Source: Catajapyx aquilonaris (taxonomy: Eukaryota). From it: a stretch of DNA of 47,128 nucleotides. How positions within the stretch are numbered: position 1 is the stretch's first letter; the number at the start of each line of letters is the position of its first letter. Position numbers and translations under genes: made by a program. The stretch covers positions 1-47,128 of the forward strand of contig KZ538808.1 in NCBI GenBank assembly GCA_000934665.2, in the 5' to 3' direction. The notes beneath the pieces were generated by a model, which had not been told where the DNA came from, made no database searches, and was given only the letters and a program-made list of their open reading frames with translations. Of this stretch, positions 2,150-32,437 are shown one piece after another.

Positions 2150-3915
2150 CGAGTCTGAAAAATGCCCATGACCTTGCGCTTATTAGCCGACGAAGCCCAA
2201 ATAATCTGTCTCTCTTTCCCATTTAACCATCCGGACACATACGACTTCCCCCTCTGATCTGGTCTCCCTCCTTCGTATGCTCTCCCCANCAGTCTCGGCT
2301 CTCGATGCGCCTCTATTAGTGGCAGGGATTGTCACCAGCACGTCAAGTTTCTTCGGCTGCCGATGGACCCATCAACGTCGGACAATACATTTGGCGGCCA
2401 TAGTACCACTTAAATTTGCAACAGGAAACATTGCTGAGGGAGTTCAATTGACAAAGGGCCCAACTCCACTGATTGTGACCTTCAATAGACACTGACTTAT
2501 TGCTTTCTAGTAGATGAGATCTAGGTGCCAGTAGGTATGTATCATGGTGCTCTATTAGCATCATCAACCACAAAACTCGAAATGGAGCAATTACTCGTGT
2601 ATGCAGTACTTTGTCTCTCCTGAAAAATTTGACCTCGTGGAGTAGGGCCCCTTGGCAAATGACGTCTTCAATAAATTATATTGGAGGTGATGCCTTGAAG
2701 CCCTAAGTGTATTTATTTACTTATTTGTAGCACCCACCTGAGGCATTGGAGCCCTAAGTTTAATGCCACGAGTGCGAAAAACTTCAGGCCAGGTATAGAT
2801 CAGCCTTTGCAGCCAGAGTTTATTTTCAAAACTTTCAGAACATTGCAAAGTGAAATGGTAGAATTGAATCAGTTGTTACGAAAAGGGCTTCAAGTCCACT
2901 TTTGGCATTTTCGAGTTAACACTGCCATGTTGCTTCCTGAGTTTCAATGCATATGGTATATCGTGCTGAATGAAAACGGCATCAGTCAAAAAATGCCTCT
3001 GCACATGATAAAGCTTCACTAAAATAATACATAATAGTAAAAGGACAGATAGGACCATTTTTTATGAGAAGTTGGTTCGTGGCACTGAAGCTTTTTTCGT
3101 AACAATTGAATCAATTACTGTAATTTCCTAGCAGCCCCATGTTCCACGAATCGAGATGCTTCCACCTCCACCACTACTACTGGGAACAACACTCAGGCCA
3201 CAATTGAGCAAGGTTCCAGAAGGAGCACTATTACACGGATGAGAATAAGATTGCAGTTGTTCTGCACTTTGTAGTCGTGTCTACAGTTCAATGGTTCTGC
3301 ATACTGAATTACTGACCCCATATTGAAGTAATTAACTTACTTCCAGTCGGACCCTGAATATTTTCACATGTTCCAGTTATTCTTAGCTCCGTGGTTCAAG
3401 CTTTCTACCGTTACCTCACTTATTGCAACATGCCGGTGTGAAACGAGGTCGACCAGCATGCTGGTATAACCCGGGGATGTCCGGCATGCCGCAATAACGG
3501 AGGTAGAGTTCCATCATTTTGATCCTCGACACAAATTTTGGAATGCATCTGGTACTGTACTAAAATAATGTTAATATGGTGAAAAATGGGCAAGTACAGG
3601 TCTACAGGACTGTGAGAATATGCAAGTTCATCTGTTGCACAGAGCATAAGAATGTGACCAATCCCATATTCAGGCCCATGCCTGGAGTGGTGGCCCTTCA
3701 AATAATTTCATATCTATCTTTAATTGTCTTCTGAGAGGATTTGCTACCATGAATTCCACAAACGAATGTAAATAAAAACATTGTTTGGAGGTTAGAGCAC
3801 TATGTGAGTGATCAATTGAGTGGCATTTAAATTTTCGACATTTATCAGTTCTGCTTTTGTAGCAGCAATTGAGTCCTAATGTTCTCATTGGTTGTTTGTC
3901 ATTATTTATTTCAAT

Positions 3916-4244
3916 TATTATTATTATTTTCATTACCTCACTTAGGGAGCTACTTACTCCTTTGGGGGTGTGGATTACCACCATCGAGATTTGTTGGGGC
4001 GTGTTAAGAAGGATCTTATTAGTTTACTCTAAGGGTAGGTGGGAGGGGATGTGCAAAGTGCATGTGCGCTGTCGTTGAGTGGTCATTTTGTGAACCCCCC
4101 GGGTGGATTAGTCTTTAAGAAATTTCCACCCGAAATGAAGCCAGAGATGGCCCAACTCTGCACGGATAAAGGTGGGAACCTCGGGTGGGGATTGAACCTG
4201 GGACCTTCATATCCGTGGGCGCGTCGCCACTTCCATCTCCCCGG
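3916..4244 (-). mobile_element. tRNA-derived SINE (second family), full length
   Basis: 5' GGGGAG..., B box AGGTTCAATCCC, short (AAT)n tail, 11 bp TSD tttatttcaat at 3905-3915 and 4245-4255. Confidence 0.8.
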
Positions 4245-4359
4245 TTTATTTCAATATTTTAGAATTATAATTTTTTTCTCCTTTCTTATTGGGAAGATGT
4301 TAAGAAAATGCTATAGGAACTGACATTGCGTTACTCAATTCTTCTCGGGTCTCAGGAGG

Positions 4360-5295
4360 GTATTACAAACCTGATTGGCTGGCCTGGCATATGAGATCTT
4401 GAGTGAGGTCGTCCGGTATATCAATGCCCAGGTTATGAAGCATGTGCTGCAGCTCGCTGGCATTGACTCGTCCATCTCGGTTTTGATCTAGTAGCACGAA
4501 CGCTGTCCGAAGGTCTGGGGGGTTATGTACAATAGAATTAACCATCTATACTCTTACACAATACTGAACACTGGTCAAGTGATTCAAGAACACTTTACCC
4601 TTGATAATAATGGGTTTTCGTGTTCTTCATTGGCGGGCCGTCGAGAGCATTCAAATAATTCATGAAATTAATCAAAGTAATGATTCAGATATCACAGTGG
4701 GTATCTTGCTCAACTTCCTTCACACAACTACAGGTACATTGTAGGAAAGATACACCTTCAAAGTGATATTGGTATTAAGTTACACATTTTCACCTTGTGA
4801 CACTATAAAATTGTAACATTGCCCCCAAGATCCGTTAAAACACTGACCCTCAACATATTTCGAGACAAGATGTGGAAGGTGTCCGTCAGTAACCTAACGT
4901 TATACAAAATCAGACCCCGGCAAAAAGTTGCAAGTGGAAATAAAGAGAGAAAACTGGAGGGGTACATCGCGTATATGTCCTGGTACTTAGCACTTCTGCT
5001 CAATTCCGTGACGCACAGGTGTAACTATGTAAGCATAGAAATATGTAAGGAAGGAGCCCTTATTGACGTGTTGTTCATCGTGTAATAACTTTATCTCTTA
5101 ATCTAACCTTTAAAACATGAATCAAAATGAAAAACTGCTGACTGCCACCTTATATTTTCCCCAGCGCAGGCAAAAGCAAACTGAACTGGCCTGCTAATAG
5201 CCTTTCAATATATTTCTTGAAATTCTGATTTAATTTGGTGCCTTGAAATGTGGGGAATGCCAATTTCACAAATCTTATAAATCTTATGATGTAAA
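4360..5295. repeat. Local segmental duplication (direct) of 17044-18314
   Basis: Near-identical sequence from gtattacaaacctg to atcttatgatgtaaa. Differences are scattered SNPs, a shorter G-run, a 13 bp indel near 4978-4990, and absence of the SINE found at 17887-18212. Confidence 0.95.
4371..4514 (-). pseudogene. Duplicated copy of the E63-1-like EF-hand-1 exon (orphan exon or possible alternative 3' exon)
   Basis: 144 nt differing from 17055-17198 at only two positions that I could see (GCA>GCG synonymous; ATT>ACT, I>T). AG acceptor and GTTTGT donor retained. No copies of the other exons are visible nearby. Confidence 0.85.
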
Positions 5296-5297
5296 AA

Positions 5298-5406
5298 GCG
5301 GGGGAGGCGGAGTGGTGCTGCGGTAACGTATTCGCCCACGGATGTTAAGGTCCCGGGTTCGATCCCAGCCAGGGGACACTCCCTTCATCTCGTGCAGAGT
5401 TCAGGG
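5298..5406 (+). mobile_element. tRNA-derived SINE head related to the 3916-4244 element
   Basis: Shares GGGGAG, GCCCACGGAT..AAGGTCCC.GGTTC.ATCCC and CGTGCAGAGTT with the minus-strand copy; B box GGGTTCGATCCC. The 3' extent is uncertain and may run to about 5557. Confidence 0.7.
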
Positions 5407-5557
5407 AAAATAATGGCACCTCTATACATATAGTGATGTTTGCATAAAGTAATTTCTACATAACCAGTGCCAAGGAGCTCACATTACAAGTTTCTCTGAG
5501 TTGTTATTAAACCCCATGTACTACAGTAGAGTGCGTGCTTCCTACAATATAATAATA

Positions 5558-6767
5558 GGGTAAACCATACAGTTACGGGCCACCATACAGTAATGAGCCA
5601 CTTATATAGTAGTCTTATTTATATTAATGTATGTAGTGAAAGTAGTGATCATTTTCGCCCATGGGTGGCTGCACTGCATTGTTGGACGAACGTTGTATAC
5701 AATTGAAGAGCACAGGGGAAAAACGGGGAATGTCACACAAAAAAATGTCCATGAAAAATCGAAGAAATAGCTTTATTTCTTCACGTGTCTAAAGAATAAC
5801 AGGGATATCTTCACGTCATTATATGCAACTGTCACCCTTGTACCCATGGAAAGCCTCCAGGTATAAGTGTCACCTATGCTACTATTGTATTTTTCATCAG
5901 TCCAAAAAGAATTGTCCCAGTCATCCTGATGTGTGTGCTGCCCGCTCGACACACACCATGTAACTTACATGGTGTGTGTCGAGCGGCCAGCCCACACGTC
6001 AGGATGACTGGGACAGTTCTTTTTGAACTGTTGATACTGTGCACTTGGCAGGAACCCCAACGGAATTGGACATTCCCCGTTTTTCCCCTGTGCTCTTCAA
6101 TTTTTCCCTGGTTGGCCTTTCATCAAGGTCGCCAGAGCCTCTCGTCTCTGAGTCACTTCCATCAGAGGGTCACTTCACTAAGTAGTTGGTAAGGAGTAGC
6201 ACTGCAGCTAGTGCTAAGTTACAAGGGTTTTCGTCACTCCAGGTTGCCGATGTCAATTTGCATGGCTAGGGTAGACTCCATAGTTTCATATTTTGCATAT
6301 AATGATGAGTCAGTATAGATAGCATGAGTAGAAGGGGGTGGCCCATAACTGTGTGGATCAAAACCATCACTTTACAGTAATGGGCATACCCTACCCAAAA
6401 CTACTACCCAAGTCATCTGTTCTTAACGAAATTGAAAAACTGCCGAGACAGTAGGAAACAGTGCTAGGCAACACCCTGCGCCACGAAAGTGCGGCAAACA
6501 ACAATAGAGTCCCTACAATATTAGGTGGCCCATAACTGTCCCAAAGGCGGCCCATAACTGTACTTTTGTGACTTTTTTGGAAATCCTCATTACCAAAAAT
6601 GACAGTAAAGGAGAATTTCAAAATTACAGTTGCTCATTGAAATAGAACATTCTGAAGATTCAAAAAATATATATAATCAAACTCTAGATGTAATTACTGT
6701 GGGTCATGTTACGATGTGAATATATTTGAAAAATTTCTTAATTGGCCCATAATTGTATGGTTTACCC
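5558..6767. mobile_element. Non-autonomous TA-flanked DNA transposon with subterminal repeats (Tc1/mariner-pogo-like)
   Basis: TIR GGGTAAACCATACAGTTACGGGCCA versus TGGCCCATAATTGTATGGTTTACCC, TA on both sides. Internal GGYGGCCCATAACTGT copies at about 6337, 6524 and 6546. Confidence 0.8.
5701..6102. mobile_element. MITE nested in the 5558-6767 element, with internal hairpin
   Basis: Perfect 34 bp inverted termini aattgaagagcacaggggaaaaacggggaatgtc; internal palindrome at about 5898-6030. Confidence 0.8.
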
Positions 6768-9700
6768 TATAATATTCAAGTAATCTGAATAGTACCAGCA
6801 CAATCCATGTAGGCCTACTGGTTCGTAACATTATACTGTAAGAATTATTTTTGGAGTTATGCAGGGACACATTTGCGATTGATATTATTGTGTATATCTT
6901 GGAAAGTCAACAAAAATGTAGTCAATACCAATAATGATTATTTGATAAGAAATATGCTTTTACAAGACAGTTTTGGCATCTGCCCGATAAAATATCATCT
7001 TTTAAAATTGTGCCAATTTGCGACTATGTAAGAATTTTTAGAAATCTGCCCTTTTGAAATCTCCTTTAACCAGTGTATGAAATAGGTTGTCATCATAAAG
7101 TTTGTAAACAATTTGTAAAGGTTGGAGAGGCACATTTTGTTGGTGGCGCATTTAATTGATTTTGTATACGTAAGTATACGTAAGTATATAACTCATACTA
7201 TAGCTCGCCCCATATTTGACGGGGACTTGGCTGTTGACTTCCGTTGGGGAAAGATCGTTTTTGGAGAGACGTTTATCTCCGCTTCAAGATTGTTTCGAGA
7301 GTACTTCTCCCATCTGTTGTGTTGTTTGATTTGGCCGTGGATTTGACTGTATACAAGTTCCAGTGACAATATAAGGAGTGCATATTTAAAACACGCAAGT
7401 TTTTGTTCTTTTGAACTGAACTACACGATCCAGAAAGAAGTCTTCGTGAAGAATCCGACGTTTACGCAAGTAAGTCATATACAGAACAGCATCAGAACAG
7501 TTGCAGTGTATTGTTTACGTTCATATAAGTCAACCGGCTCTTATTGACAGAGCAGAATCTCAGAAAATGTCCTTTGCATGGTATGTGAAAGCAATAATGT
7601 CGATCCTCTTCCAGCACAGATCTTGGTCGTTCTGTGTGTGGTGTATTTGTGGATACCCCAGGGGAAAGAGTGAAACGTGGAAGGAGAACTGTAGTCTGAT
7701 AGAGTCGTCTGTTCAATTCCATTTTATCCTCAAATTGATTCAAATGCGCAGAACTAACCCCGCCAAGGTTGAACCCGACTTCCTAACTTATAAGTTATAC
7801 CATAAGAGGCATTAATGAAATCTAGCTTGCTGTAGTGTACCTTCCACTCGTCATCCTGGTTAGATTTTCACGGAACACGCCGTCACGCACTGTGCAGTGG
7901 TGAATTACGGACCGGATTTTGTAAGATAAAATGCAACTGAACGACCGTCTCCCTCCGCCAATTAAGGTGAAAGCTCACTCTTAATTTCCCAATGAGCGTT
8001 TAGATCGAACTTCCGATGGAATGGCTAGCCTCTTAAATACGCTCTTATATATCTATTTAATCAGCTCTGTCACAGCCTAAATACACGTGATTGTTTTTAT
8101 TTAAATTCGTATGTTGCAAGTAATGGAAGATGATTCCAAGAATGTGAGTGACAATCACTTTTACGGCATACAAAGCGTCGAAAAATGTTTCTTATAATAG
8201 CGGGTAAAGGCAATTCATTTGTATACAATATTAGCCTGTGTGCTCATGTTACGTACAATAACTTAGTATACAAGGAAGCACTGGAGCATACGTCCTTGTG
8301 ATTACGTGAGATTACGCGAGAGAATTAATGTAGCCTACTGTACTGTACTGATTAGCTCCATTGGGCCCTTACTTTTTTGAATGGTTTTATATCAAGGTAT
8401 CACCTGCCACACTAATGTGACGCCAGGTTGGCAGTGCACATATAGAAATGAGGAGTGACCTACACTATATGAGTACACCCCGACCAGATCCGGGCTTTCG
8501 GTGGTCGTAACCAGTGGAAGTAAGCACTTTTAGTGACCACCTGACTCTATACTCATTCAGTATTTGAATATTATTATAAGATTATGGACAACCCCCTCAC
8601 TATAGGTATTCAACCCGTCTGTTAATCCGGGCGGCGCAACCAGGACCCGTATGGCCGTATACTGGCCAAGTTCGCTAGCACTCTACTTGGTAGAGTGCGA
8701 AGGGATGACGTATGCCTCCGAAGCGGGCGGGCTGTAAGGCTACAGCTAGCCGCTCGAGTGTTTTGGTGGTATCGAGAGTGGCCAACAGGTCAACAAAATT
8801 AAACAAGGTACAAGGTGGCCAACAGGTTAAAGTTCCAGCATTACACTAATGACATTCTGTAGTATAAAATGTTACTCTGTGTATTGGGCATCTGACGATT
8901 TATTGACCCTATATTAGACCAAATATTGCTACCTACCCATAAAGTTTCAGTAGGGTGCGCCACATTATTAAGGTTAATTGCCAGCATTTTTATACAGAAC
9001 ACTGCAACAGAATCCCTGGTTTTCGATTTTGAGCAGTTCGTGACAGCTTGAAGATGTTCCGCGTTGCTAAATTTTTCTGGGCTTTCAAACTAACCGTCCA
9101 TTTCACATAATTAACAGTATTTGGCAATAAGATGCTTATTTTAAGCAGTTTTTTAAATTAGTACGTTCAGAGGATGTCACAAATATTAGAGGCCAATATT
9201 AGGTTAAATTTACTGAGCATCCTCTCAAGCTCCGACTTCCAATACTAGTTTCGAGAATGTGGGGATGATTTATTTAGAAAGCGGTTGCTGGTACTATCCG
9301 AGGCCACTGTTGAACCAATATTAATATCACATTAGACCTCCCAGAAGTGTTAACTACCGAACCTTCTTTCAATATTACAATGTATTAATTATATCAGTTA
9401 TAATTCCTGCAATTAACTATGAGAAAGTAACTGCTTGATCATAGTCTAAGCATATTTCCCAGAATAGAAGCAGGTTCATTACGGGGTACCTGTGAATCAA
9501 TACATAAATGAGTAGATTAGGCCTACTGATAAAAACTGTTAGCTGAAACGGATAGTGAGATACAGTACAACGTTCATGCGAAATATTTCCTATATACTCT
9601 GTCCATACTCTTTACGAAATCATCATTATTGAGGTGTATAGGCCTACTGTTGATTACCGAATAGTACCTGAGTGCACATAAATTAATAAAAGTACCTTAT

Positions 9701-12700
9701 ATATTTTTGAAGTTTATTTTAATTCAGAATAATGTATTTTACAATGTTGAACAGCCACTCTTCATAACATAGGTAATGAACAGAATAGCAGAAACCACAT
9801 TCAATAGTTCGCGGGATCCGTCTAGTATCTGCGTATAGTATTGCAGATACATACAGTATGAGGCCTGTTGAACCCACATAACTCAACCACAAAAACAGAA
9901 TCGACAGACTTTCATTTCTGATCGGGTACAACTTTATCATACATAAGCCCACTGCTATGGAAAGCTGTGTTGATTAACAGCATTACCGCTTAGGAAATAG
10001 TAACAGAGAGGTTGCTTATAAAAATTCTAAGCGAGGAAGACACTACAGCACAGATTTTGTACCGAACAGTACGACGTACGTTCGGCGTATTGTGTAGTGT
10101 AGGAAGCAACATGATCTTTAACATAAATATGCAGATTAGATCTGCAGATTTTGTAATAATATATCTAAATTAAATGTGCTGTTACAAATCCAGTTAGAAA
10201 ACTCCATAGAGATTTTAAAAGATGTATTCGTGGGATCACAGCGCTGTAGGTATTGGATATTTTTTAAACCATCGCCATTTATAACGATCAAAATAGAGAT
10301 TTATGAAGGGACCTAGAGCTCTTGGAGAACGTTTTTCAAAAAAAAATCATTTTTTTTTTGCAAATTCTCTTTATATCCATCATCGAAGTGTTGTGATTCC
10401 ACAGCTTATAGACATGTATCCTTTTTAGAAACCTGCATATTGCAGTGGAACAAAACGTGGAGTAAGTTTGAGATTAAATATTGTGATCAAGACGATCATA
10501 GTGAATGGGTATCACGATACCATACAGTCATGTCTTTCTTAACTCATGTATATCACAAAATAATTTCTGCACAAAACTAGTTCTTATATTTTATATGCCC
10601 GCCTTACGGAGGTGAAAACTACGTTACATTAATTTGTTATCAGGTCACATGTAACAAGTATTTTTTTAAACTTCTTACTGGGACTCTACTGACAACATCA
10701 TGGAAGCATGTATAGTAGTGTACACATTGTTATACTGTCAATATTATTTTTGGCGTTACACAACTTCTGAAGCGACAATAAATAACATGATCTGTTTTCA
10801 TACAATTAAGGACTGAGACCATACAAACAAAACTTTAATCGCCCCCTTTCTGTCCATCTGCGCACGCGCGTTTGGATTCAAGCACAGGCTTTTTCCATTA
10901 TGTCAGCTAGACGTGAAACGAATAGGGTAAGGTACTGTAGAATGCAGATCCCTCATGAGTCTTCTTGCGTTCAGGGTCCCAGGAGACGTTTCCTGAGCCA
11001 TATTGGGTCATGTATGCAGAGAAGCTTCTGAGGGACCTAACAGTTATGCATCACAATATTAGTAGCCTATGTATAATATAGGTCAATTTGCTAAATTTTA
11101 CTGTGAATTTTAATCGCGTTCCAATTATTGGGTGTTGGTAGAGTTGACGTTAGCATTTAAGGTTTATAGCGATAGGGGCTAAAACTTTCTCAGTAACGAC
11201 TACTTTATACGGCACCGCACGTAAGAATAAATGCTTTTCATGACTCACTTAACATAACTTCAATAGAGATAAAACCACAACCATATCCACATGCTACTGT
11301 CAGCCTCGAGGATGATTGAATCCCTGTGTGCAACCTGAATTGTTTGGAAGTGAGTTTTATATCTGCCTTTGAAGAATAACCTGACTTTGTGCATCTGACG
11401 ACTAACGCGAAACGCAAGAAGTGCACTACAGTCTAGATCATAATGCTACCGTAGATCTACTATAAATATACGGGTTGAGTAGTGACTCCCTCATAATAAT
11501 GGACACAAGTAGTAGGTTATGCCAGGGTTATGCTTTAACCCATTCCAACACAAAAATGGGCTACAGCATTATTATTTTTTTTACTAGTGAGGCTTTTTGA
11601 TGACGTGCGCTTTGTGACGCTCCTGTGGTGAATAATAAGGAATAGGGTTGACAGCTCATTCACCTTGGGAAATCACCAAAACTTAATTGCCTCGAGTTCC
11701 GTAAATACTCCTCACTGTCAAATATGATGTAAGCTTACTGCATTTTGGTCCATTATTAACGCAGTGGTCACTAATCACCCTCTATTAGTTTATTCATTTT
11801 GTGCGGTTGCTCCAGTGCCGCGCTATAGCTTTACTAATCTACATTACGCGATGGATCACATGCAACCATTACTTTGTCAGCCTTAATGCCTGTTTTCACT
11901 TTGGTATAGTTCTTATTTTCTATGAGGAAACATTTCCCACAAAATGTCACAAATGACGACATGTAACATAATTACGTAAAGACTAAAGGGTGGAAAGATG
12001 TACACTAACGACTTTTTAAACAGGTATAAAAGTAAGTTAAGCCTCTTTTCGAATCTATCTCCAAATACGATTTGTATAGAAAGAGTAATGAACATTCAAC
12101 AATGAACGCAATGAACAGTGAAAATAAGTCAAATTAACATTTTACAGTATACAGTGAGATAAATGAGCGAAATGGTTTATGCCATAAATTTAGATCACGG
12201 GGCATAAGTGCACTCTTTTCTAATAACACTCCTACCTTTTCGGTGCCGTCGCTGAAATAGAAATTGAGAAAATGTATAGACTCGCAGCGAGCAATCCGAC
12301 GTCAATTTTTGTAAAATGGACGCCAATCGCAACTTTGCTTGTGGTCACAGCGCAACTATAGGATCGCCGCCCATTTTGGCTGTCTCACAGAACGTTGGTC
12401 CATGATATGCACTGTGACCCTAGTCGTAACGAAATGCAAAGTCTCCAAGACGGAAGGAAAGCAGAAATCAAGTTTCCATTCCATTGAATTTGTCCACGGA
12501 TGTTATCAGATTGAAGAGAGGCGCTCGCCAAGAAGCTGACTTCGATGCGATTTTGGCCTCCTCAACACGATTCGGGGGGTTTTTTTTTCTGACACTCTCT
12601 CAGCCTGCTTCTTTCTGCTTTCTTCGGCTTTTCTTGTGCTGGCCAACAAAATTGTTCAGGAGACGGGAATGTTTCTTTTTATTCTTTTATATTCCCAGCG

Positions 12701-12750
12701 AGCAACGGTCTTGACTGATGCACAGGCCCCTTTCTTCATTTCCTGGAGCA

Positions 12751-12773
12751 CTATATCATCAGTCTGGCGAATT
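12751..12773 (-). CDS. Eip63F-1: E63-1-like terminal coding exon (EFARLMI*)
   Basis: Acceptor tttcttccgcAG then AA TTC GCC AGA CTG ATG ATA TAG. Completes the EF4 loop and helix (INYE-EF), as in E63-1/calmodulin C-termini. Confidence 0.88.
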
Positions 12774-15700
12774 CTGCGGAAGAATTTGGGACCAATTAGG
12801 CATTGAAAGCACTGGTATTTAGTTTCTGAAGGCAGTTCCATGATAATAAGACTTGTACGGTTTCATTCTTCTCAAAAGGGTGGGCTTGAACCTTTTTACT
12901 ATAGGCGAGATATCAAAAACATAATGGTACTGCATTTATAGCAATTTATCTACTTCGTAAATGTATAGATAGCGTATAAATGGCTAAAATTGTCAGGCAG
13001 CCAAACATTCAAATCCAGTTAGGCCACTTTTAAATGTTCGTCCTTAAATTATTGTTATGTATTAATATTCTCCAAGTTGGTATGTTATGTTGAAGCGCAT
13101 AGCTGAAAATATCGAAACTCGATTCGCTATATATTTCACAAATTGGTGTTTAAGAATCAAAATATAATTTATTTATTTGCTCAGGGTAACCAACTTTGCC
13201 GGAAATAGCTCAACGGACAAACTTCTTGAAATTGTTTTTAATAGTCGAATGATTTATGCAAGGAAGATTTTACGTGCAGAACTCCCACGTCACTTGCTGA
13301 CACACGTTACGACTTACGATACATTTGAAAATTGGATTTTTCTCCACGATCGGTACGATTTTCTGACCTTTTGAGACCGTCGCGTCGCGTTGTTGTTTTG
13401 CATTGCCATCGAAGGAATTGTTAAGGATGATTCTTATTCGCTTTCAGATTTGAAATGAGGTCTACTATTATACGAGGTAATGGTGCTCTTATTGGCGTTT
13501 CATTTGTTAATAACTCATTAATTGTTAATTGCACATTATACGGTCGACGTATTGGTAGATTTCAAGTATAGAATTAAGCACTCTACTCTGGTGAGCAATT
13601 ACCATGTTCTTGCCTTAATGAAATAGTCCATTTTACTGGGATGTTTAGCAGTTTGTGTTGGCTGACGTTACGCAGGATACGGGAGACATTACAGTCCATT
13701 AAAAATACTTGAAAATTTGCGAAGTTAAATTACCTGCACTCTACGAATTGCCAAAAGCCTACATTTAATCAACAGTAGAACAGCTGAACGTAATAAGCAT
13801 GGAGCTCATGCTGATGTATAATGAAATTTACATTAATGTATTAACGCGAACGCAGATTGAAACACTAACTCAAAATAATACGTTTCACTTGGTGTACATG
13901 ATAGTCATGATAATGAGCTAGCAAGCCAGGATTTTCTATATTTACTAGCATGTGCAAGTTCAAATCATTGCCTTCCATTATCCCGAAACAGGTTATTTGG
14001 ACTTGGTGGGTTTCACTTGCCCACGATATAGTCGAGGGAAAGTGTCGTGTACTTTTAGATGAATTTGATCGCTAGTGAGAAGGTTTCCATCTGGAGCCAG
14101 TCAAACAAATTAGGAAACAGGTCACGGACGCTATTGTGATAGTCAAATTGGTGCAGCCCAATAGGTGTTTCCTATTTGAACCGAAGATCGCCTGGGAAAA
14201 GAAACCCACCTTCGTAGTTGATTCGGCCGTCGTGGTCGATATCGGCCATGGCCAGCAGTTCGTTCAGCTCGGATTCAGTGACGCTCTCGCCAATCATCTC
14301 CATCGCCGTTCGCAGCTCATCCTGCCAAAGGTGGGGGAGAGGGGCAACAAGTGGTCCCATATGAGTTATACGTTACAGCAAATCAACCGAGAAATGAGTC
14401 CTCGCGCGAAACGCATTACACAAGGATGGAATCACATGGCAATCAGTACCAAGGGCATGAGAGGAAGGGAAATAATTTTACAAGTGCATGCACAGATGGA
14501 GTTTGATCACGGTTTGCACAAATTTACGCGAAAAATTTAAGTGCGTGTAAAATTAGTACTACATGTAGGTCGGACGGGGTGAATAAGACCACTTTTCAAG
14601 TTTTCATATTACATTTGTTGCATATATTATTTTCTCGAATACTTGTATGAACTATAGGAGTAACCATATTTACAGTACCTTTTTCTGATAGGATTGGACT
14701 TCCTCTACGACTGTGCACTAGAAACTATATAATTACGACATGAACCATATTAATCCAAGTACTATAAGTGTACATTAAACCGCGATCCTGAGCATCTCGT
14801 ATAATCGGATGCAGTTATGAACACCCCATGAAATGTGAGGCATTGAGGTAAGGCAGTGGGCCAATAAGCTTAGTTGAAATACGCCATGCATAACACAGCT
14901 ACACTGTAGGCTCTATAAAGGGCACTGCAGCTTTCCACTTTATACTTACAGGGTACATGACACCTGGGGTTACTTAACAATGACGTGTCCCTTAATTAAA
15001 TAACAGGATCAAGTCAATCACTAGTGTTGTTCATTATCGACATCCAATTATGTTGGTTGTGTTTTAAAGGGATTAGCAACCAGGCTTTACATGAGTTCAG
15101 CACAAATATTATCGGATTCCATGAATAACTCTATTATTCCAAAATATTTTCACTCGTAATTGCACCCCAGGCCAGATTAATATCCATTCTTAGGCCAACA
15201 GGTAGCCTACTATAAGCACAATATGATCTACTAGTCGGACCCTCTCTTACGAGAAATGTAGGTGAACGTGCTCCCGATAATAATGTGCCGAAATCATTAT
15301 AGCACACTACATTCAACAAATTATTACTCTAGATACAGTACACGATGATTTGCGTTATGTTCCCCTGGTTGTGTGGTAGAAATTTTCCAGCACCATGCAC
15401 ATAAATGCTGTAGACCTACATTATTATTGATAACTACATTGATGCGGGGTAATTTGAGAAAACCAGTCTTTCTATTCACCCTTTCCGACCATTCTATAAT
15501 AATTATGCAAGAACACCATTGTGCCACTTCGATAGCTCACATTTGACTCGACATTTAGTGTAATTTTGCGATATATTATAGGAGCATCTGTTTTTGTTGA
15601 GTACCTTGGTAATAAATCCGTTTCTGTCCTTGTCAAAGACGCGGAAGGCTGCGATGAGGTCCTTGCTCACGTCGTCACTGGAGTCTTGACTCAAGGCCTG

Positions 15701-17882
15701 GATTTTGGCCACCCACTGCAGGAATTCCGCCTCGTTGATAAGGCCGTTTCCTGCCAAAGAAATATCGTCACTTTCTCCTCATTTGTGGATCATTTGCTTA
15801 TATTTCATCCGGGTTCACGATGAAAAGAACACTAAATGATAAGGCAAGAGGCGTAGTTTAAAAGAGTATATGATTGTGACAACATCAAATTTTCACATCA
15901 GTATTTTTAATGATGCTTAGCAGTTTGAGCGATATTAGTCAACAACCCAATGAGTCTGTCTTCACTTGAAATTCTACTCAATTATTGACGTTGGCTTAGT
16001 ACAAATTTGCGGTGAGTAGGAATCTTGTCAGACGTAGATAGACACGCAGAAAGACGAACGATAAAGAGTGGCAAGCAACAAGGGCATAAAACACGTAACA
16101 GGACCAAAATGTTTTACGAGTAACGGTTAACGTGGCTCGTTATATGTTAGTCTACGTGTTTTTGTGGCCTGCCCCCAGACGACCTTTCAGTTTCAGTTTG
16201 TAACAATATAAATAGGAGTTTCATAATTATACTGATTGCGAGTTAGAGGCATTACCCACTGCATTGGTGTCGATGAGTCCATGTGAGAAGTGTTTTAAAT
16301 TCTTTTAATTCGTCAGGTCAGCTATTTAACAAATATGTGGCAAATATTCGGTGCATGTTCAGAAGCACGAGAAAAAGAACGCTAATACTCTTTAATGAAA
16401 ATTTCAGTCCAAAAAAATGTTAAAGACTGTTTAATCATAATTTTGTTTAAATAATTTCATCCAATAAATTAACACAGCCACATGATGGCGCATGCCTGTA
16501 GCTACTGGAGGGCACAAGCAACATTTCAATTGGAGTATTTTTCGAACCGTAGGCTATACTTTGATTTTGTAAGCCTATGTCAATCATTCTCGCCACAAAG
16601 CCTATTCTCTCGTCTCTTGGTCATGCCCTAAGCTCCCGTCGGAATGGTATTTGTGTCATGTAGTACCACAGCTAAAAATATGTGTAATCATGTGGATGTT
16701 GAGTTTTGTGGTAAATTATTGCAAAAATGCAAGACAGACTGGTGCAATACTTACTTTTGGAATGCGGTGATATAATAATTATATTATACTCTCTGACAAT
16801 AAGCGTTAGATTTAGCAACACAGTTGGCATTGCATCAGGGACAGTTTATATTAAATTGACTCATAGTTTGTATTGGTATTTATAAAATTTTGTGTACTAT
16901 GTCAGTAGTAAAAATAGTGCCATAGCTCCAATTTTAAAAAAATGATGCTGGAAAATTATATGGTGACTAAAGCAAGTGCAGGTGAATACCCGCAACAGTA
17001 TTCTTCAGCATATTGTAGAGTTCAAATAGCAGAGAAAAATAGCGTATTACAAACCTGATTGGCTGGCCTGGCATATGAGATCTTGAATGAGGTCGTCCGG
17101 TATATCAATGCCCAGGTTATGAAGCATGTGCTGCAGCTCGCTGGCATTGACTCGTCCATCTCGGTTTTGATCTAGTAGCACGAATGCTGTCCGAAGGTCT
17201 GGGGGGGGGGGGGTTATATACAATAGAATTAACCATCTATACTCTTACACAATACTGAACACTGGTCAAGTGATTCAAGAACACTTTACCCTTGATAATA
17301 ATGGGGTTTCGTGTTCTTCATTGGCTGGTCGTCGAGAGCATTCAAATAATTCATGCAATTAATCAAAGTAATGATTCAGATATCACAGTGGGTATCTTGC
17401 TCAACTTCCTTCACACAACTACAGGTACATTGTAGGAAAGATACACCTTCAAAGTGATATTGGTATTAAGTTACACATTTTCACCTTGTGACACTATGAA
17501 ATTGTAACATTGCCGCCAAGATCCGTTAAAACACTGACCCTCAACATATTTCGAGACAAGACGTGGAAGGTGTCCGTCAGTGACCTAACGTTATACAAAA
17601 CCAGGCCCCGGTGAAAAGTTGCAAGTGGAAATAAAGAGAGAAAACTGGAGGGGTACATCGCGTATATGCACTTCTGCTCAATTCCGTGACGCACAGGTGT
17701 AACTATGTAAGCATAGAAATATGTAAGGAAGGAGTCCTTATTGACGTGTTGTTCATCGTGTAATAAGTTTATCTCTTAATCTAATCTTTAAAACACGAAT
17801 CAAATTGAAAAACTGCTGACTGCCACCTTATTTTCCCCAGCGCATGCAAAAGCAAACTGAACTGGCCTGCTACTAGCCTTTC

Positions 17883-17958
<76 letters not shown>

Positions 17959-20596
17959 GATACCCCGTGATAGGCCCCTTGGGCCTCTTAGGGGATCATC
18001 TTTTGAATAACCGACTTTAATCATTTGCCTGTAATGTGATGGATTTTGATAGTGTGAGGAAACGGGAGAACCCCGAGAAAACCCATTCGAACACGGAGAG
18101 AACCCATCGAAACTCTATCCACATAAGTATCCTCCGTCCGACCCGGGGATCGAACTCGGGACCTTAGAGGTGGAAGGCTGCGGCGCTAACCACTCGGCCA
18201 CCGTGTTGCCCTCTACTAGCCTTTCAATATATTTCTTGAAATTCTGATTTAATTTGGTGCCTTGAAATGTGGGGAATGCCAATTTCACAAATCTTATAAA
18301 TCTTATGATGTAAATTTTTGACAAGTGAAAATCCCATGAAGTGCCATGTCATACGAAAAGGAGCAGCTTCATGAATAATATATTGCTGTACTAGATTAGG
18401 TAAGAAGTGTGTTCGCAGAGAAAATTAACAACGTTTGAATTCCTACGCAAATGAAATTACAATGTGCAACATGGCTACAACTTATTGTATAATAGCTTTT
18501 TTTTCATCGTGACACCTATGCAGTGCATGACTGTAAAACTATGTAAATATATTGCATAACATGCGCCCCGATTTAGCCTGTGTAAGCTATCTACCAGGGA
18601 TTCAAACCTTGTAGCATGTCTTAATGGGAACTATGCAGTGCATCCGACTAAGGTTATTCAGGTCCGGTACTGTACCGCTAAAGGCATACTGTCGACTTCC
18701 CTTATTAGGCCTATTGTTTGTAGGCAATAATGAACAAACCAATATTGATAACTATGGCTAAGGTTATTACCTGGACATAAGTGCATGATCTCAATGATTA
18801 CACATAGTACATGGACAAACTCAAAATAATATGCCTTATTACTCAAAGTGGCCTTTCAACAAAAAAAAAAAACGGTTCCTTCTTTTTATATTAATGAAGT
18901 GCTGAGTTGCACCACGCATGTAAAGATGTTCACCGCGGATTTTTAAAAATCATTTCTTGAAATAATTAACAATTAATAACAGTGAAAAACCTAAATGGCA
19001 TCATGAATCTGCTATATAATACCACCACGATATATTTGAACGTTTGAATTTCTGTAGCAAATTTAACTAGGCTACTTGTAGTCTAATAATTTTCAACATA
19101 TCAACATATTGATAATATAACCTGATATTTGGTTTTATGATAATGTCATTATTTAATTGTCCATGCACTTTTATGTAAACAAACCTATAACCAGCAGTGC
19201 CTTCATCTGAAAGTTGCAAGTCAATAGGAGACGACAGTCAAAAGCATCGCTTATAAATAGTTAGGAAAGCCACAAAAGGACTCTTCTCCCTAGATGTATT
19301 TTGTACGCTTTGTGGCCTACTCTGATTTGAAAACATTATTCACACCGAAGGAATACCGGCGACAAAACAAACCAAAAGTTGATTGACTGATCTTCAAAGG
19401 AAGCACGCTGTCTCTCACATGATCTGACATGTGGCACAATCTACGTATAACTTAAGAAGTTAATAGCCAAACTATAAAATCCACTGTCTAATTTTAGCCG
19501 GAACCGCAGTTGTATTTTTACACCCGTAAAATGTGTCACAGTTGGCAAGGGTTGGTTGGGCAAAGTGAAACGCCCGTGCTCTTCAGAGAGAGAGGGAGAG
19601 AGGGAGAGGGAGAGGGAGAGAGAAAATCCCGACCACTAAAGAGACGGGTGGGAAGTGGAGGGGATCTCTTCGACAAGTTTCGAAATCAGACTTGGCCTTG
19701 GTTCAACATCGTTACTGCGCAATCTATTCACACAAGTCACAATATTCAGGAACATTCTTTACCCTATACAATTTGCAACTTTTGGAACCTCTCTGTTGTA
19801 GTTTTTTTTTGTGCATAACTCTACAGCCTTCTCATTACGTCTGACTACGATTACACAATGCCTCTAGCCCTGCCAGCATATTCATCTGCTCATATCAGAT
19901 CGCGTCAGGTGCCCGTATGATAGGGGTGCGAAACATGTTATGTTGTTCTTGCTCGAAATGCACCCGACATACCAAAAGGAGACAGGAAAGGACGCAAAAA
20001 TATCACGGAAGTTTTGGTACACACTCTCTTTCTCTCTCACTCCCTCTAGGGCTTGTCACGGATATTTTTAACTGGCACTGAATCGCCCACAGTCAGTTGG
20101 CGGGTGGAGACCCCCCCCCCCTCTCCCTCTCCTCCCCAGTCCTCTGCTTGATCTGTAGATAATGTAAACCCATGTCAGGTTTTTTTGGCCACACACAAGT
20201 TGCAATCTGCCAGCCATTTCCAGAGATACTGACAAAGATGTCTGGCGAATGGCAACAAGTTACAAACCTGGGAGGGTGATTAGAGCAGATGCAACAGGAT
20301 AGTAGCTATAGGCGTTAAGATAGGCGACACCGATGCCGCGTAACGAGTGGCCTAAACCGTCCCAGTCCCTAGATTAAGGTGTCTGCATGAAGGTCTTGAT
20401 ATCGATTAAAAGTGAGGTTTGACGCACGTGTTTGGATCAGGTCCGTGGCAAAGTGGGAAAAACGCAAGGAGGAAGCAAGGACACGAACACCTTCAGTGAT
20501 CTGTTTGAAGAGTAATCCTATCTATTTGTCTAGCCTAGCCTTCGATGTATCTCTTCTTTGGAGGTTGCTCAAGTGTTGACATTTTTCCAATGTCGC

Positions 20597-31062: not shown

Positions 31063-32400
31063 NNNNNNNNNNNNNNNNNNNNNNNNNNNNNNNNNNNNNN
31101 NNNNNNNNNNNNNNNNNNNNNNNNNNNNNNNNNNNNNNNNNNNNNNNNNNNNNNNNNNNNNNNNNNNNNNNNNNNNNNNNNNNNNNNNNNNNNNNNNNNN
31201 NNNNNNNNNNNNNNNNNNNNNNNNNNNNNNNNNNNNNNNNNNNNNNNNNNNNNNNNNNNNNNNNNNNNNGGGGGGGGGGGACTAACTCCCGGCAAATTGC
31301 CCAGGATTTTCCCGCCTGAATAACAAGAGGAATACAGCAATTTGTTAACTGCAGGTTTTGCAGTGGATTGGGACAGCAACAATTTGTTCTCTTAGTTGGG
31401 CCATTTTTAAATAGTATCCTTCAGCTTGCTTTTTGTAATTCAGCCCAGATAAGAAGGCCGCAGGTGTATTTCTTCATAGAGAGCAACGAACGAAAGGATC
31501 CTTTGTGGAGCCAAGAATGTAACCCGGACGGACGCAAAAGGACCTGTCTCAAAATGCCAACTACCGCATGATACATATCCGCGCTGTTATCCCCTTCACC
31601 TCGCCACCTGCCCCATTTATCTGCACCACTGCGTTACATCGCTTGGAATTTGCTTGTCTACGCCAACTGCATTTACTACATGTCTACTTCTATTATTCTG
31701 GCATGACTTAAATTTGGAGTTGAATTACGTAAGAGGCGGCCCGAAGCGACCGCACGCGTTCAGTTCGCTACGTCAACATCACGTGTCTGGTGGGTGAAAC
31801 GATCGGATATATAACTTGGTGTGGCTTCCTGAGCTGAAAAGGCGATCAGTTCTATTAACTCCGTTGGTGCAAAGCGCTTATTCATCTCTACGGCAAACAT
31901 TCATTTTCCGGGTCCCAAGCGACGTGGAGGCCACATAACTTTGGTGTAACCTTGACATCTGCTAGTTGGTTCGCCGCTCCTGCCGCCATTATAATATCAG
32001 ACGTGGAGGTGAGGCTATCAAAGTCGACTTTACGTGATTCGGAGCCATTTGTCTGACGGTGTTGTCGTTTGTGCCCTACCATTTTCTACCGCGCAATCAG
32101 TGACTTTGCCACCTTTTCAAGTAACAAAACGCTGGATTCGGCAGTGAAAAAAAATTATCAGCATGTTAATGAGGTATCGACCGTGCCTTGCATTGTATGT
32201 ATTTAGTCTAACGGAATCTGCATTGCAAACTGCATTTACGTAAAACTGTTGTTGCGATCAACAGGTGCAGGCCTATATGAAATGTGCGGAGGTTGTCAAG
32301 ACAAAAAGGAGAATGCAAAATTGGATTGTTGTGAACTTACCATGCTGTTGCTGTGTTCATTCTGCACCTCATCTGATTTGGTGGGCTTTCCATGCGACAT
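12751..32400 (-). CDS. Eip63F-1: Calcium-binding protein E63-1-like (calmodulin-like, 4 EF-hands); whole spliced coding span, 6 coding exons, about 175 aa
   Basis: Joined exons translate to MSHGKPTKSDEVQNEHSNSM-EAATGRHFSEGELK-DLRTAFVLLDQNRDGRVNASELQHMLHNLGIDIPDDLIQDLICQASQS-GNGLINEAEFLQWVAKIQALSQDSSDDVSKDLIAAFRVFDKDRNGFITK-DELRTAMEMIGESVTESELNELLAMADIDHDGRINYE-EFARLMI*. Exon lengths 60+43+144+146+112+23=528 nt with all intron phases compatible. Motifs DLRTAF, SGNGLINEAEFLQWV, DLIAAFRVFD and TAMEMIGE match Drosophila E63-1 as I recall it (no search run). Confidence 0.9.
14210..14321 (-). CDS. Eip63F-1: E63-1-like exon encoding EF-hand 4
   Basis: Acceptor cctttggcAG, donor AAG|GTGGGT; 112 nt; DELRTAMEMIGE...DIDHDGRINYE. 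Confidence 0.95.
15605..15750 (-). CDS. Eip63F-1: E63-1-like exon encoding EF-hand 2 end and EF-hand 3
   Basis: Acceptor tttctttggcAG, donor AAG|GTACTC; 146 nt; GNGLINEAEFLQWV...FRVFDKDRNGFITK. Confidence 0.95.
17055..17198 (-). CDS. Eip63F-1: E63-1-like exon encoding EF-hand 1 and the start of EF-hand 2
   Basis: Acceptor (C)nAG, donor CAG|GTTTGT; 144 nt, phase 1/1; canonical loop DQNRDGRVNASE. Not in the ORF track. Confidence 0.95.
17887..18212 (-). mobile_element. tRNA-derived SINE with V-domain-like core and (TTA)n tail
   Basis: A box TGGCCGAGTGG, B box GAGTTCGATCC, core TGGGTTTTCTCGGGGTTCTCCCGTTTCCTCACAC. 17 bp TSD ctactagcctttcaata at 17870-17886 and 18213-18229. The empty site is present in the duplicate near 5194-5210. 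Confidence 0.92.
20597..20665. repeat. (AAT)n microsatellite
   Basis: Uninterrupted AAT run of about 23 units. Confidence 0.95.
22433..22508. repeat. Short palindrome
   Basis: tgcatgccattttgctacctaatattacaag ... cttgtaatattaggttgcaaaatggcatgca. Confidence 0.85.
23565..23626. repeat. (AAT)n microsatellite
   Basis: Uninterrupted AAT run of about 20 units. Confidence 0.95.
24816..24858 (-). CDS. Eip63F-1: E63-1-like small coding exon (EAATGRHFSEGELK) with GC donor
   Basis: Acceptor gttgtcttccAG; 43 nt; ends AAA G|GCAAGT. FSEGELK-D corresponds to the FTExEIK-D helix preceding EF1 in E63-1/calmodulin. The phase-1 end joins AC of the next exon to make GAC. Confidence 0.85.
27080..27366. mobile_element. 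hAT-family MITE spanning an assembly gap
   Basis: Termini CAGGGGCGAATCCAG / CTAAATCCGCCACTG with exact 8 bp TSD gatgtagg (27072-27079, 27367-27374); internal G/C runs. Confidence 0.85.
27443..27500. repeat. Perfect 58 bp spacer-less palindrome
   Basis: tacggcccatgccttcatcatatagtata|tatactatatgatgaaggcatgggccgta is its own reverse complement. Confidence 0.95.
31063..31269. other. Assembly gap between poly-T and poly-G runs
   Basis: Run of N. The other longer gaps are at 27118-27272 and 41551-41566. Confidence 0.95.
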
Positions 32401-32437
32401 TTGCCGATGGCCCTCAGGCGTGGCCCTAAAGGAAGAT
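32341..32437 (-). CDS. Eip63F-1: E63-1-like candidate first coding exon (ATG at 32400, MSHGKPTKSDEVQNEHSNSM); 5' part probably UTR
   Basis: Strong acceptor ccatttttctctgcAG (AG at 32438-32439) and consensus donor ATG|GTAAGT. The phase-0 end fits the next exon. There is no homology support for the peptide, and the last ATG of the exon could be the real start. Confidence 0.6.

What the first reader, a model, noticed from the sequence alone, without database searches (positions are those of the whole stretch)
4360..4516. Orphan duplicate of the EF-hand-1 exon downstream of the gene, in phase to create a five-EF-hand isoform
Seen: a 144 nt copy of exon 17055-17198 lies on the same strand about 8.2 kb past the normal stop (12751), with AG/GT sites intact and two substitutions. 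The penultimate exon (14210-14321) ends in phase 1 with G and the copy begins AC. Inference: skipping the terminal exon would give ...DGRINYE-DLRTAFVLLDQNRDGRVNASEL...QASQS. That changes EF4 loop position 12 from E to D, supplies a replacement exit helix and adds a fifth EF-hand. Read-through of the copy's donor ends at GGT TTG TAA (4363). This may be an exon-shuffling event caught early, or a dead copy.
Basis: partly seen in the sequence, partly recalled or inferred. Interest (0 to 1): 0.75.

Follow-up and report, generated by a model that had tools for sequence, protein, structure and literature searches.

The report
Leftover exon copy behind calcium-binding gene
A roughly 1-kb piece of an arthropod calcium-binding gene (mostly intron, plus one exon) was copied to a spot 8 kb behind the gene; the copy is real but looks like ordinary decaying duplicate DNA, and the spliced RNA seen uses the original exon and the normal gene end.

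Summary
A 144-nt copy (4514-4371) of the EF-hand-1 exon of an E63-1-type gene lies 8.2 kb behind the stop. AG/GT are intact, it has two substitutions, and it is in phase.

It is not a lone exon. It ends a 935-bp genomic copy (4361-5295) that is about 780 bp intron. The copy stops at the TA target of a DNA-transposon end and starts at a broken SINE. A third, exon-less copy lies on contig C4742.

DNA runs (one sample) carry the copy's alleles at paralog-like depth, so it is not a second haplotype. Exon divergence (2/144) is indistinguishable from intron divergence (20/766; p=0.56). The one amino-acid change hits a position that is I/V/L in 120 of 120 homologues. A drifting copy this young stays intact 45-78% of the time. 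The spliced RNA contig over this exon carries the host allele and ends in the normal last exon.

A fifth EF-hand would sit 8 residues after EF4 (24-30 elsewhere in the protein) and would replace Glu12.

Verdict: probably an unused partial duplication. A rare read-through isoform is not excluded. The scan noted similar exon duplicates elsewhere in this genome, none near this locus.

The parts
4371..4514 (-). Copy of the EF-hand-1 exon (144 nt, phase 1-1), 2 substitutions: 4501 synonymous, 4403 Ile to Thr
   Evidence: Pfam EF-hand_1 and EF-hand_7 above cut-off
4361..5295 (-). Whole duplicated block: about 780 bp of host intron 2, the exon, and 10 nt of host intron 3
   Evidence: intron part 20 substitutions in 766 aligned bases plus 3 indels
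4363..4370 (-). Copied donor site; read-through gives two codons and TAA
3672..4360 (-). Left part (about 350 of about 900 bp) of a non-autonomous DNA transposon with terminal inverted repeats and TA target. Its end abuts the block at the TA 4362-4361. It is interrupted by a SINE-like insert (about 4244-3928) and broken off at 3672. AATAAA at 4250 and 3910.
   Evidence: 459 candidates in the genome, 40 scored; TA before the end in 17 of 19 copies, TA on both sides in 6 of the 8 with both ends found; AATAAA
5296..5306 (-). 11 nt shared with the C4742 copy but absent from the host intron; 6 of them are the first bases of the SINE-like repeat
5301..5406 (+). First 106 nt of a high-copy SINE-like repeat (a full copy is about 330 nt plus an ATT tail), cut at its 3' side; marks the upstream edge of the block
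   Evidence: 96% to the copy in L021; loose ends of many contigs at 5301; the label SINE is from recalled features, not from a library search
17055..17198 (-). Parent exon (coding exon 3, EF-hand 1) of the E63-1-type host gene
   Evidence: its allele is in RNA contig 26
17887..18229 (-). 343-nt insertion in the host intron (SINE-like element with ATT tail plus 17-nt target duplication) that both copies lack, so it is younger than the duplication or polymorphic
32341..32437 (-). Host coding exon 1 (holds the ATG)
   Evidence: read by eye; joined product is 155 of 175 identical to P0002
24816..24858 (-). Host coding exon 2 (43 nt, GC donor)
15605..15750 (-). Host coding exon 4
   Evidence: RNA contig 26
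14210..14321 (-). Host penultimate exon; ends in phase 1 inside EF4 loop position 12
   Evidence: RNA contig 26
9811..12773 (-). Normal last exon: 23 coding nt (stop at 12751), then RNA cover reaching at least 9811 (a 3' UTR of about 3 kb, inferred)
   Evidence: RNA contigs 26, 29 and 28 of run X5 cover 12773-12041, 12000-10350 and 10359-9811

Best explanation
This is an unused partial gene duplication made at the DNA level. A stretch of the E63-1-type gene that began in intron 2 was copied in direct orientation 12.7 kb downstream, either as a 1-kb templated patch or as the start of a longer tandem copy. Its downstream edge was set by a TA-targeting DNA transposon, which either inserted and was followed by a deletion, or caused an adjacent deletion. 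That cut fell 10 nt past the donor, so one whole exon survived by accident. The copy has no promoter, lies about 5 kb beyond the RNA-covered 3' UTR, and is drifting. Shown: the block, its edges, its divergence, its presence in DNA data, and normal splicing of the host. Inferred: the order of events, the role of the transposon, and that the exon is not used.
For: (1) About 780 of the 935 copied bases are intron. (2) The downstream edge is exactly TA plus the terminal repeat of a family with 459 candidate copies; 17 of 19 copies examined have TA at that place. The upstream edge is a cut SINE-like repeat. (3) The same intron piece was copied a third time, without the exon, onto the 3' end of a zinc-finger gene. 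Three paralogs of that gene continue with other sequence at exactly that base. (4) Exon 2/144 against intron 20/766 substitutions, Fisher p=0.56. (5) The one amino-acid change is to Thr at a site that is I in 107, V in 11 and L in 2 of 120 homologues. (6) A neutrally drifting copy keeps AG, GT and an open frame in 45-78% of 20,000 simulations per setting. (7) Run X5 is spliced RNA. Its 1412-nt contig carries the host letter at 4403 and joins exon 3, exon 4, the penultimate exon and the normal last exon at 12773. (8) 117 of 120 homologues end 6 residues after EF4 position 12, and each of the 120 has the EF1 entry motif once.
Against: Splice dinucleotides, frame and phase are intact. The copy's acceptor has as many pyrimidines (11 of 17) as the real last exon's acceptor, and AATAAA signals lie at 4250 and 3910. 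Exon divergence (1.4%) is numerically below intron divergence (2.6%), and 144 bases give almost no power to detect constraint. In the three-way intron alignment the copy has fewer private changes (5) than the host (13). One of 120 homologues (P0112) has Asp at position 12 followed by an unrelated 20-residue tail, so this donor probably can be joined to another last exon elsewhere. The RNA evidence is one run, as contigs, which drop rare forms. No contig listed bridges either edge of the block (6151 pieces were not shown), so its place rests on the assembly.
Confidence: 0.82

Rival explanations
1. Minor alternative last exon. Polymerase sometimes reads past the normal poly(A) site, the donor at 14210 splices to 4514, the copied donor is read through to TAA 4363, and a transposon-derived AATAAA ends the message. 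The 218-aa product would have Asp at EF4 position 12, the EF1 entry helix standing in as EF4's exit helix, and an extra loop-helix tail.
For: Open frame and matching phase; acceptor and AATAAA present. C-terminal swaps through alternative poly(A) use are a known route (PMC8373072, passages). One homologue shows an alternative tail with Asp at this same junction.
Against: The RNA contig across these exons follows the normal path with the host allele. Glu12 is kept in 119 of 120 homologues. Loop 4 and loop 5 would be 8 residues apart against 24, 30 and 24 for the others. In true penta-EF-hand proteins the shared helix is described as very long (PMC4649501, passages). One 8-residue helix cannot bury the same hydrophobic face in two EF-hands (inference). 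No constraint is seen on the copy.
Confidence: 0.12
2. The block is real DNA but misplaced by the assembler between two high-copy repeats, so it does not lie behind the gene; or it is present on only one chromosome.
For: Both edges touch repeats of very high depth, and no listed contig bridges them. In run X1 the depth ratio (1.12) is near the 1.00 expected for a heterozygous copy. Runs X1-X3 are one sample and may be the source of the assembly.
Against: The window has no N gap between 2290 and 27117. X2 and X3 give 1.46 and 1.28, nearer the 1.50 of a homozygous paralog. The best other matches of the two flanks are at most 95-96% identical, so the flanking repeat copies can be told apart.
Confidence: 0.05
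3. The block is the second haplotype of the host exon region, wrongly assembled as a separate locus.
For: The assembly does hold alternative haplotypes as separate pieces: C19379 is a 269-bp second version of the host exon region.
Against: The haplotype slot is already filled by C19379 (267 of 269 identical to the host). Host and copy differ by 2.6% plus a 343-nt insertion, against 4-5 other letters over 7.6 kb nearby. Expected depth is 0.75 times single copy; observed 1.12, 1.46 and 1.28. The two have unrelated flanks on both sides.
Confidence: 0.01

Closest known systems
Duplicated and decaying (pseudogenic) exons near genes, Morais and Harrison 2009 (PMC2718932; abstract and section 8 read)
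   Same: A copy of a gene's own exon lying 3' of its parent and beyond the gene's 3' end. The paper counts 118 such cases in human and 84 in mouse, and finds pseudogenic exons at 0.4-1.0% of genes, with ion-binding genes over-represented in human.
   Different: Their set is defined by frameshifts or premature stops, in mammals. This copy has neither inside the exon, so it would be an earlier, not yet disabled stage.
Tandem exon duplication-derived C-terminal substitutions, Martinez-Gomez et al. 2021 (PMC8373072; passages read)
   Same: A duplicated coding exon behind the normal end could be used through alternative poly(A) choice (77 of 236 human events are C-terminal).
   Different: There the duplicated exon is homologous to the one it replaces and is mostly ancient and conserved. 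Here an internal exon would replace an unrelated 23-nt last exon, the copy is young, and no use was seen.
Calcium-binding protein E63-1 / Eip63F-1 of insects (host gene; names as given by the sources)
   Same: The host product is 175 aa with four EF-hand loops, 155 of 175 identical to P0002. P0002 is 72% identical to named E63-1 proteins of Schistocerca and Anabrus. Nearest solved structures are calmodulins.
   Different: None of the 120 listed homologues (of 348 found) repeats the EF1 entry motif.
Penta-EF-hand proteins (sorcin, ALG-2/PDCD6; PMC4649501 and PMC2927601, passages read)
   Same: The hypothetical isoform would have five EF-hand loops, with one helix shared between EF4 and EF5.
   Different: Penta-EF-hand proteins have eight helices, two very long shared helices (EF2/EF3 and EF4/EF5), and dimerise through EF5. 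Here EF2 and EF3 are 30 residues apart as in calmodulin-type proteins, and the EF4/EF5 stretch is only 8 residues.
COE/EBF helix duplication in vertebrates (PMC2394523; abstract only)
   Same: A duplicated exon added a repeated helix to a protein, which shows what a successful outcome of such an event looks like.
   Different: That copy is tandem, internal, ancient and always included.

Membership tests
Partial gene duplication at the DNA level | Copy includes intron sequence and lacks part of the gene (promoter, other exons) | tested here: met
   About 780 bp intron plus one exon; no other part of the gene is repeated in the window at E<1e-5, and the protein search of the genome shows no second copy of the other exons it detected
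Partial gene duplication at the DNA level | A second locus, not an allele or an assembly duplicate | tested here: met
   205-nt contig with the copy's letters in 3 of 3 DNA runs (one sample); depth 1.12-1.46 against 0.75 for a haplotype. Position next to the gene not bridged independently.
Pseudogenic exon (Morais and Harrison definition) | Frameshift or premature stop inside the duplicated exon | tested here: not met
   The 144-nt frame is open
Pseudogenic exon (Morais and Harrison definition) | Substitution pattern of decaying sequence | tested here: inconclusive
   1 synonymous and 1 non-synonymous change; not different from intron, p=0.56; power very low
Tandem-duplication-derived alternative last exon | Both exons are spliced to the same upstream exon in transcripts | tested here: inconclusive
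   The normal join is seen in one RNA run; contigs cannot show absence of a rare form
Tandem-duplication-derived alternative last exon | The alternative exon is homologous to the exon it replaces | tested here: not met
   The copy derives from internal exon 3, not from the 23-nt last coding exon
Penta-EF-hand family | Very long helix shared by EF4 and EF5 | tested here: not met
   8 residues between loops 4 and 5 in the hypothetical product
Penta-EF-hand family | Helix shared by EF2 and EF3 (eight helices in all) | tested here: not met
   30 residues between loops 2 and 3, room for two helices and a linker (helix count inferred)
Penta-EF-hand family | Dimerisation through paired EF5 | not testable with these tools
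   The hypothetical spliced product was not folded
E63-1 / Eip63F-1 family (host gene) | Closest named relatives are E63-1 proteins over most of the length; four EF-hand loops; short tail after EF4 | tested here: met
   orthology by tree or synteny not tested
Tc1/mariner-type non-autonomous element (downstream edge) | Terminal inverted repeats and TA target duplication (feature recalled) | tested here: met
   Both ends found in 8 of 19 copies, TA on both sides in 6 of those 8; no transposase partner was sought
Helitron or Pack-type captured fragment | Fragment enclosed by the two ends of one element, with a target signature | tested here: not met
   No enclosing terminal repeats or target duplication in 2800-7200; the only inverted pair around the block is two SINE-like copies at 75%; the block has 3 copies only

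The most novel reading that the evidence does not exclude
In some tissue or moult stage the gene skips its last exon and splices to the copy, with a poly(A) signal supplied by transposon DNA. This would give a functional E63-1 isoform with a weakened EF4 site and an extra EF-hand on a shared helix: a calmodulin-type protein caught taking a first step towards a five-EF-hand, possibly dimerising, architecture.
Probability: 0.04. Interest if true: 0.65.

Novelty: new member of a known kind. Interest (0 to 1): 0.17.

Why it matters
As it stands it matters little. It is a tidy example of the raw material for exon shuffling: a young, still intact exon copy with datable edges, in a locus whose intron was copied twice. 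If the isoform were shown, it would be a rare living intermediate in how EF-hand proteins gain an odd fifth hand, and the two copy-specific letters make it testable with one RT-PCR.

Tried and rejected
No RNA holder was listed for 3500-6500; run X5 was of unknown kind and proved to be spliced RNA only when laid.

No X5 joint from 14210 to 4514 is among the 15 joints listed; 5 more were not shown and 5 X5 joints at repeats were dropped. Contig 26 alone accounts for the X5 depth in the bins over the copied exon (2.60) and the penultimate exon (1.97 and 0.38). X5 has no cover in the bins 4841-5287 and 6182-9757. Contigs drop rare forms, so these blanks are not counted as evidence of absence.

The idea that the intron block is itself a common mobile element was rejected: 3 places in the genome and DNA depth only 2-3 times single copy.

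Helitron or Pack-type capture was rejected for want of enclosing ends. RNA-mediated copying was rejected because intron sequence is kept and there is no poly(A) at the edge.

C4742 as the source of the block was rejected: three paralogs of its zinc-finger gene continue with other sequence at the junction base.

No continuation of the block was found beyond either flanking repeat. The host's flank above 18314 and the C4742 flank below its copy each matched only themselves.

A search for longer proteins with the exon found one hit among 6 candidates, a four-EF-hand protein; this is a weak search.

Two literature searches on E63-1 (15 titles each, listings only) showed no title on a duplicated exon in this gene; I make no wider claim that it is unpublished. 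No earlier finding of the scan lay near this place. One search was in the wrong frame and is not used; exon edges were off by 1-3 nt for three exons and were corrected. The hypothetical 218-aa product was not folded, so the structural argument rests on residue spacing alone.

Full report
OBSERVATION. The window is the whole contig G000:C1544 of a 285.6-Mb assembly in 20,583 contigs. On the minus strand lies a gene with six coding exons: 32437-32341, 24858-24816, 17198-17055, 15750-15605, 14321-14210 and 12773-12751. Joined, they give 175 aa with four EF-hand loops, 155 of 175 identical to database protein P0002. P0002's closest named relatives are insect calcium-binding protein E63-1 at up to 72% identity, so the organism is very probably an arthropod. 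It has two substitutions, at 4501 (synonymous) and 4403 (Ile to Thr). Splicing 14210 to 4514 would give an open 218-aa product with Asp at EF4 position 12. All of this is confirmed.

ANATOMY. The copied unit is not the exon but a 935-bp genomic block, 4361-5295, matching 17046-18314. About 780 bp of it is intron 2, and it ends 10 nt into intron 3. The host version carries a 343-nt insertion with a 17-nt target duplication and a 13-nt deletion; the copy keeps the older state at both. The intron parts differ at 20 of 766 aligned bases, with three indels. The downstream edge is exactly a TA followed by the end of a repeat with 459 candidate copies. In 17 of 19 copies examined the same end is preceded by TA. 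In 8 of 19 the other end was found, six of them 882-897 bases on, and 6 of those 8 have TA on both sides. I read this as a Tc1/mariner-type non-autonomous element (label from recalled features). The window's copy breaks off at 3672. The upstream edge is the first 106 nt of a SINE-like repeat whose full copy is about 330 nt plus an ATT tail. No element encloses the block.

A THIRD COPY. The intron part alone, ending 20 nt before the acceptor, also lies at G000:C4742:1705-2696. It is joined to the 3' end of a C2H2 zinc-finger gene. Three paralogs of that gene match up to base 1704 and then continue with other sequence, so C4742 received the piece. It shares with the downstream copy 11 nt that the host lacks, 6 of them the start of the SINE-like repeat. 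Over 732 ungapped columns there are 13 host-only, 5 copy-only and 24 C4742-only differences and 1 column where all differ; some of the 24 lie in one poorly aligned tract. The simplest reading, which is inference, is that the ancestral intron carried that repeat, was copied twice, and has since changed in the host. I could not settle the order.

IS IT REAL DNA? Three DNA runs of one sample, possibly the source of the assembly, each hold a 205-nt contig at 4360-4564 with no difference from the copy. It ends exactly where host and copy part. Of its 175 words, 87 are shared with the host. The expected depth is therefore 1.50 times single copy for a paralog, 1.00 for a copy on one chromosome and 0.75 for two haplotypes of one locus. 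Observed: 1.12, 1.46 and 1.28 against the length-weighted mean of five nearby contigs. Contig depth is a rough measure. A true second haplotype of the host exon exists separately as C19379, 267 of 269 identical. The haplotype reading is thus disfavoured. No listed contig bridges either edge (6151 pieces were not shown), so the position rests on the assembly, which has no N gap between 2290 and 27117.

IS IT USED? I laid 4 of the 5 listed runs on 3500-16900, which leaves out the host exon. Run X5 proved to be spliced RNA. Its contig 26 (1412 nt, depth 9.45) lies on the copied exon with two other letters, including the host letter at 4403. It then runs through 15749-15604, 14320-14210 and 12773-12041: the normal four-EF-hand message. 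Two more contigs carry RNA cover on to 9811, about 5.3 kb short of the copy's acceptor. This shows the normal form. It cannot exclude a rare one, and the blanks are listed under tried and rejected.

IS IT UNDER SELECTION? Exon 2/144 against intron 20/766 gives p=0.56, with little power. The changed residue is I, V or L in 120 of 120 homologues held (the best 120 of 348 found), so the change arose in the copy and is non-conservative. A simulation of neutral change at 0.8-2.5% substitutions plus indels leaves AG, GT and the frame intact in 78-45% of trials. Three of the gene's five coding introns are phase 1.

WOULD THE PRODUCT MAKE SENSE? Glu at EF4 position 12 is kept in 119 of 120 homologues, and 117 of 120 end 6 residues later. 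The loops of the hypothetical product are 24, 30, 24 and 8 residues apart. Penta-EF-hand proteins do share a helix between EF4 and EF5, but it is described as very long, and they also share one between EF2 and EF3 and pair through EF5 (PMC4649501 and PMC2927601, passages). An 8-residue helix could plausibly stand in as EF4's exit helix, but it cannot also serve as the entry helix of an unpaired fifth hand with the same face. That is inference; the product was not folded.

The acceptor is no poorer in pyrimidines than the real last acceptor (11 of 17 each), and AATAAA lies 113 nt after the stop. One homologue, P0112, has Asp at position 12 and an unrelated 20-residue tail, which looks like an alternative last exon at the same donor in another species. 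C-terminal swaps by alternative poly(A) use are documented (PMC8373072, passages). A low-level isoform therefore stays possible, at about 12%, and a functional one at about 4%.

COMPARISON AND NOVELTY. Copies of a gene's own exon beyond its 3' end are a described class. Morais and Harrison list 118 disabled cases in human (PMC2718932, abstract and section 8). This one is not yet disabled, so it is not a member by their definition but looks like an earlier stage. It is not a tandem-duplication-derived last exon in the usual sense, since it is not homologous to the exon it would replace. It fails the penta-EF-hand tests that could be run. Earlier notes of this scan report other duplicated exons in the same genome (unchecked) and none near this locus. 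No supplements were read, and none is likely to bear on this locus.

VERDICT. A real, young, partial duplication trimmed by repeats, most likely unused (0.82). New member of a known kind; interest 0.17.

Noticed in passing
G000:C4742:1705-2696 (L010): Third copy of the host intron piece, joined at a sharp junction to the 3' end of one member of a small C2H2 zinc-finger gene family (4 matches in the genome); it has its own insert at about 2284-2493.
   Followed up: yes
G000:C19379:1-269 (L003): A 269-bp contig that is a second haplotype of the host exon region (267 of 269 identical).
   Followed up: yes
   Followed up: partly
window 12750-9811, - strand: RNA cover suggests a 3' UTR of about 3 kb, running past AATAAA hexamers at 12683 and 11794.
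   Followed up: partly
window 46473-45940, - strand: Open frame of 177 aa with a BTB/POZ domain (E=6.8e-19), preceded by a 153-aa frame (46970-46509) with no Pfam hit; possibly one split or broken gene upstream of the EF-hand gene.
   Followed up: partly
protein P0112: An E63-1 homologue from an unnamed source with Asp at EF4 position 12 and an unrelated 20-residue tail; probably an alternative last exon at the same donor in another species.
   Followed up: partly
window 5552-6773: Another DNA-transposon-like element with 31-nt terminal inverted repeats, holding a nested insert at about 5701-6102.
   Followed up: partly
L010 7571-8962 +: A second, longer zinc-finger-like open frame (463 aa) on C4742, judged by eye.
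   Followed up: no
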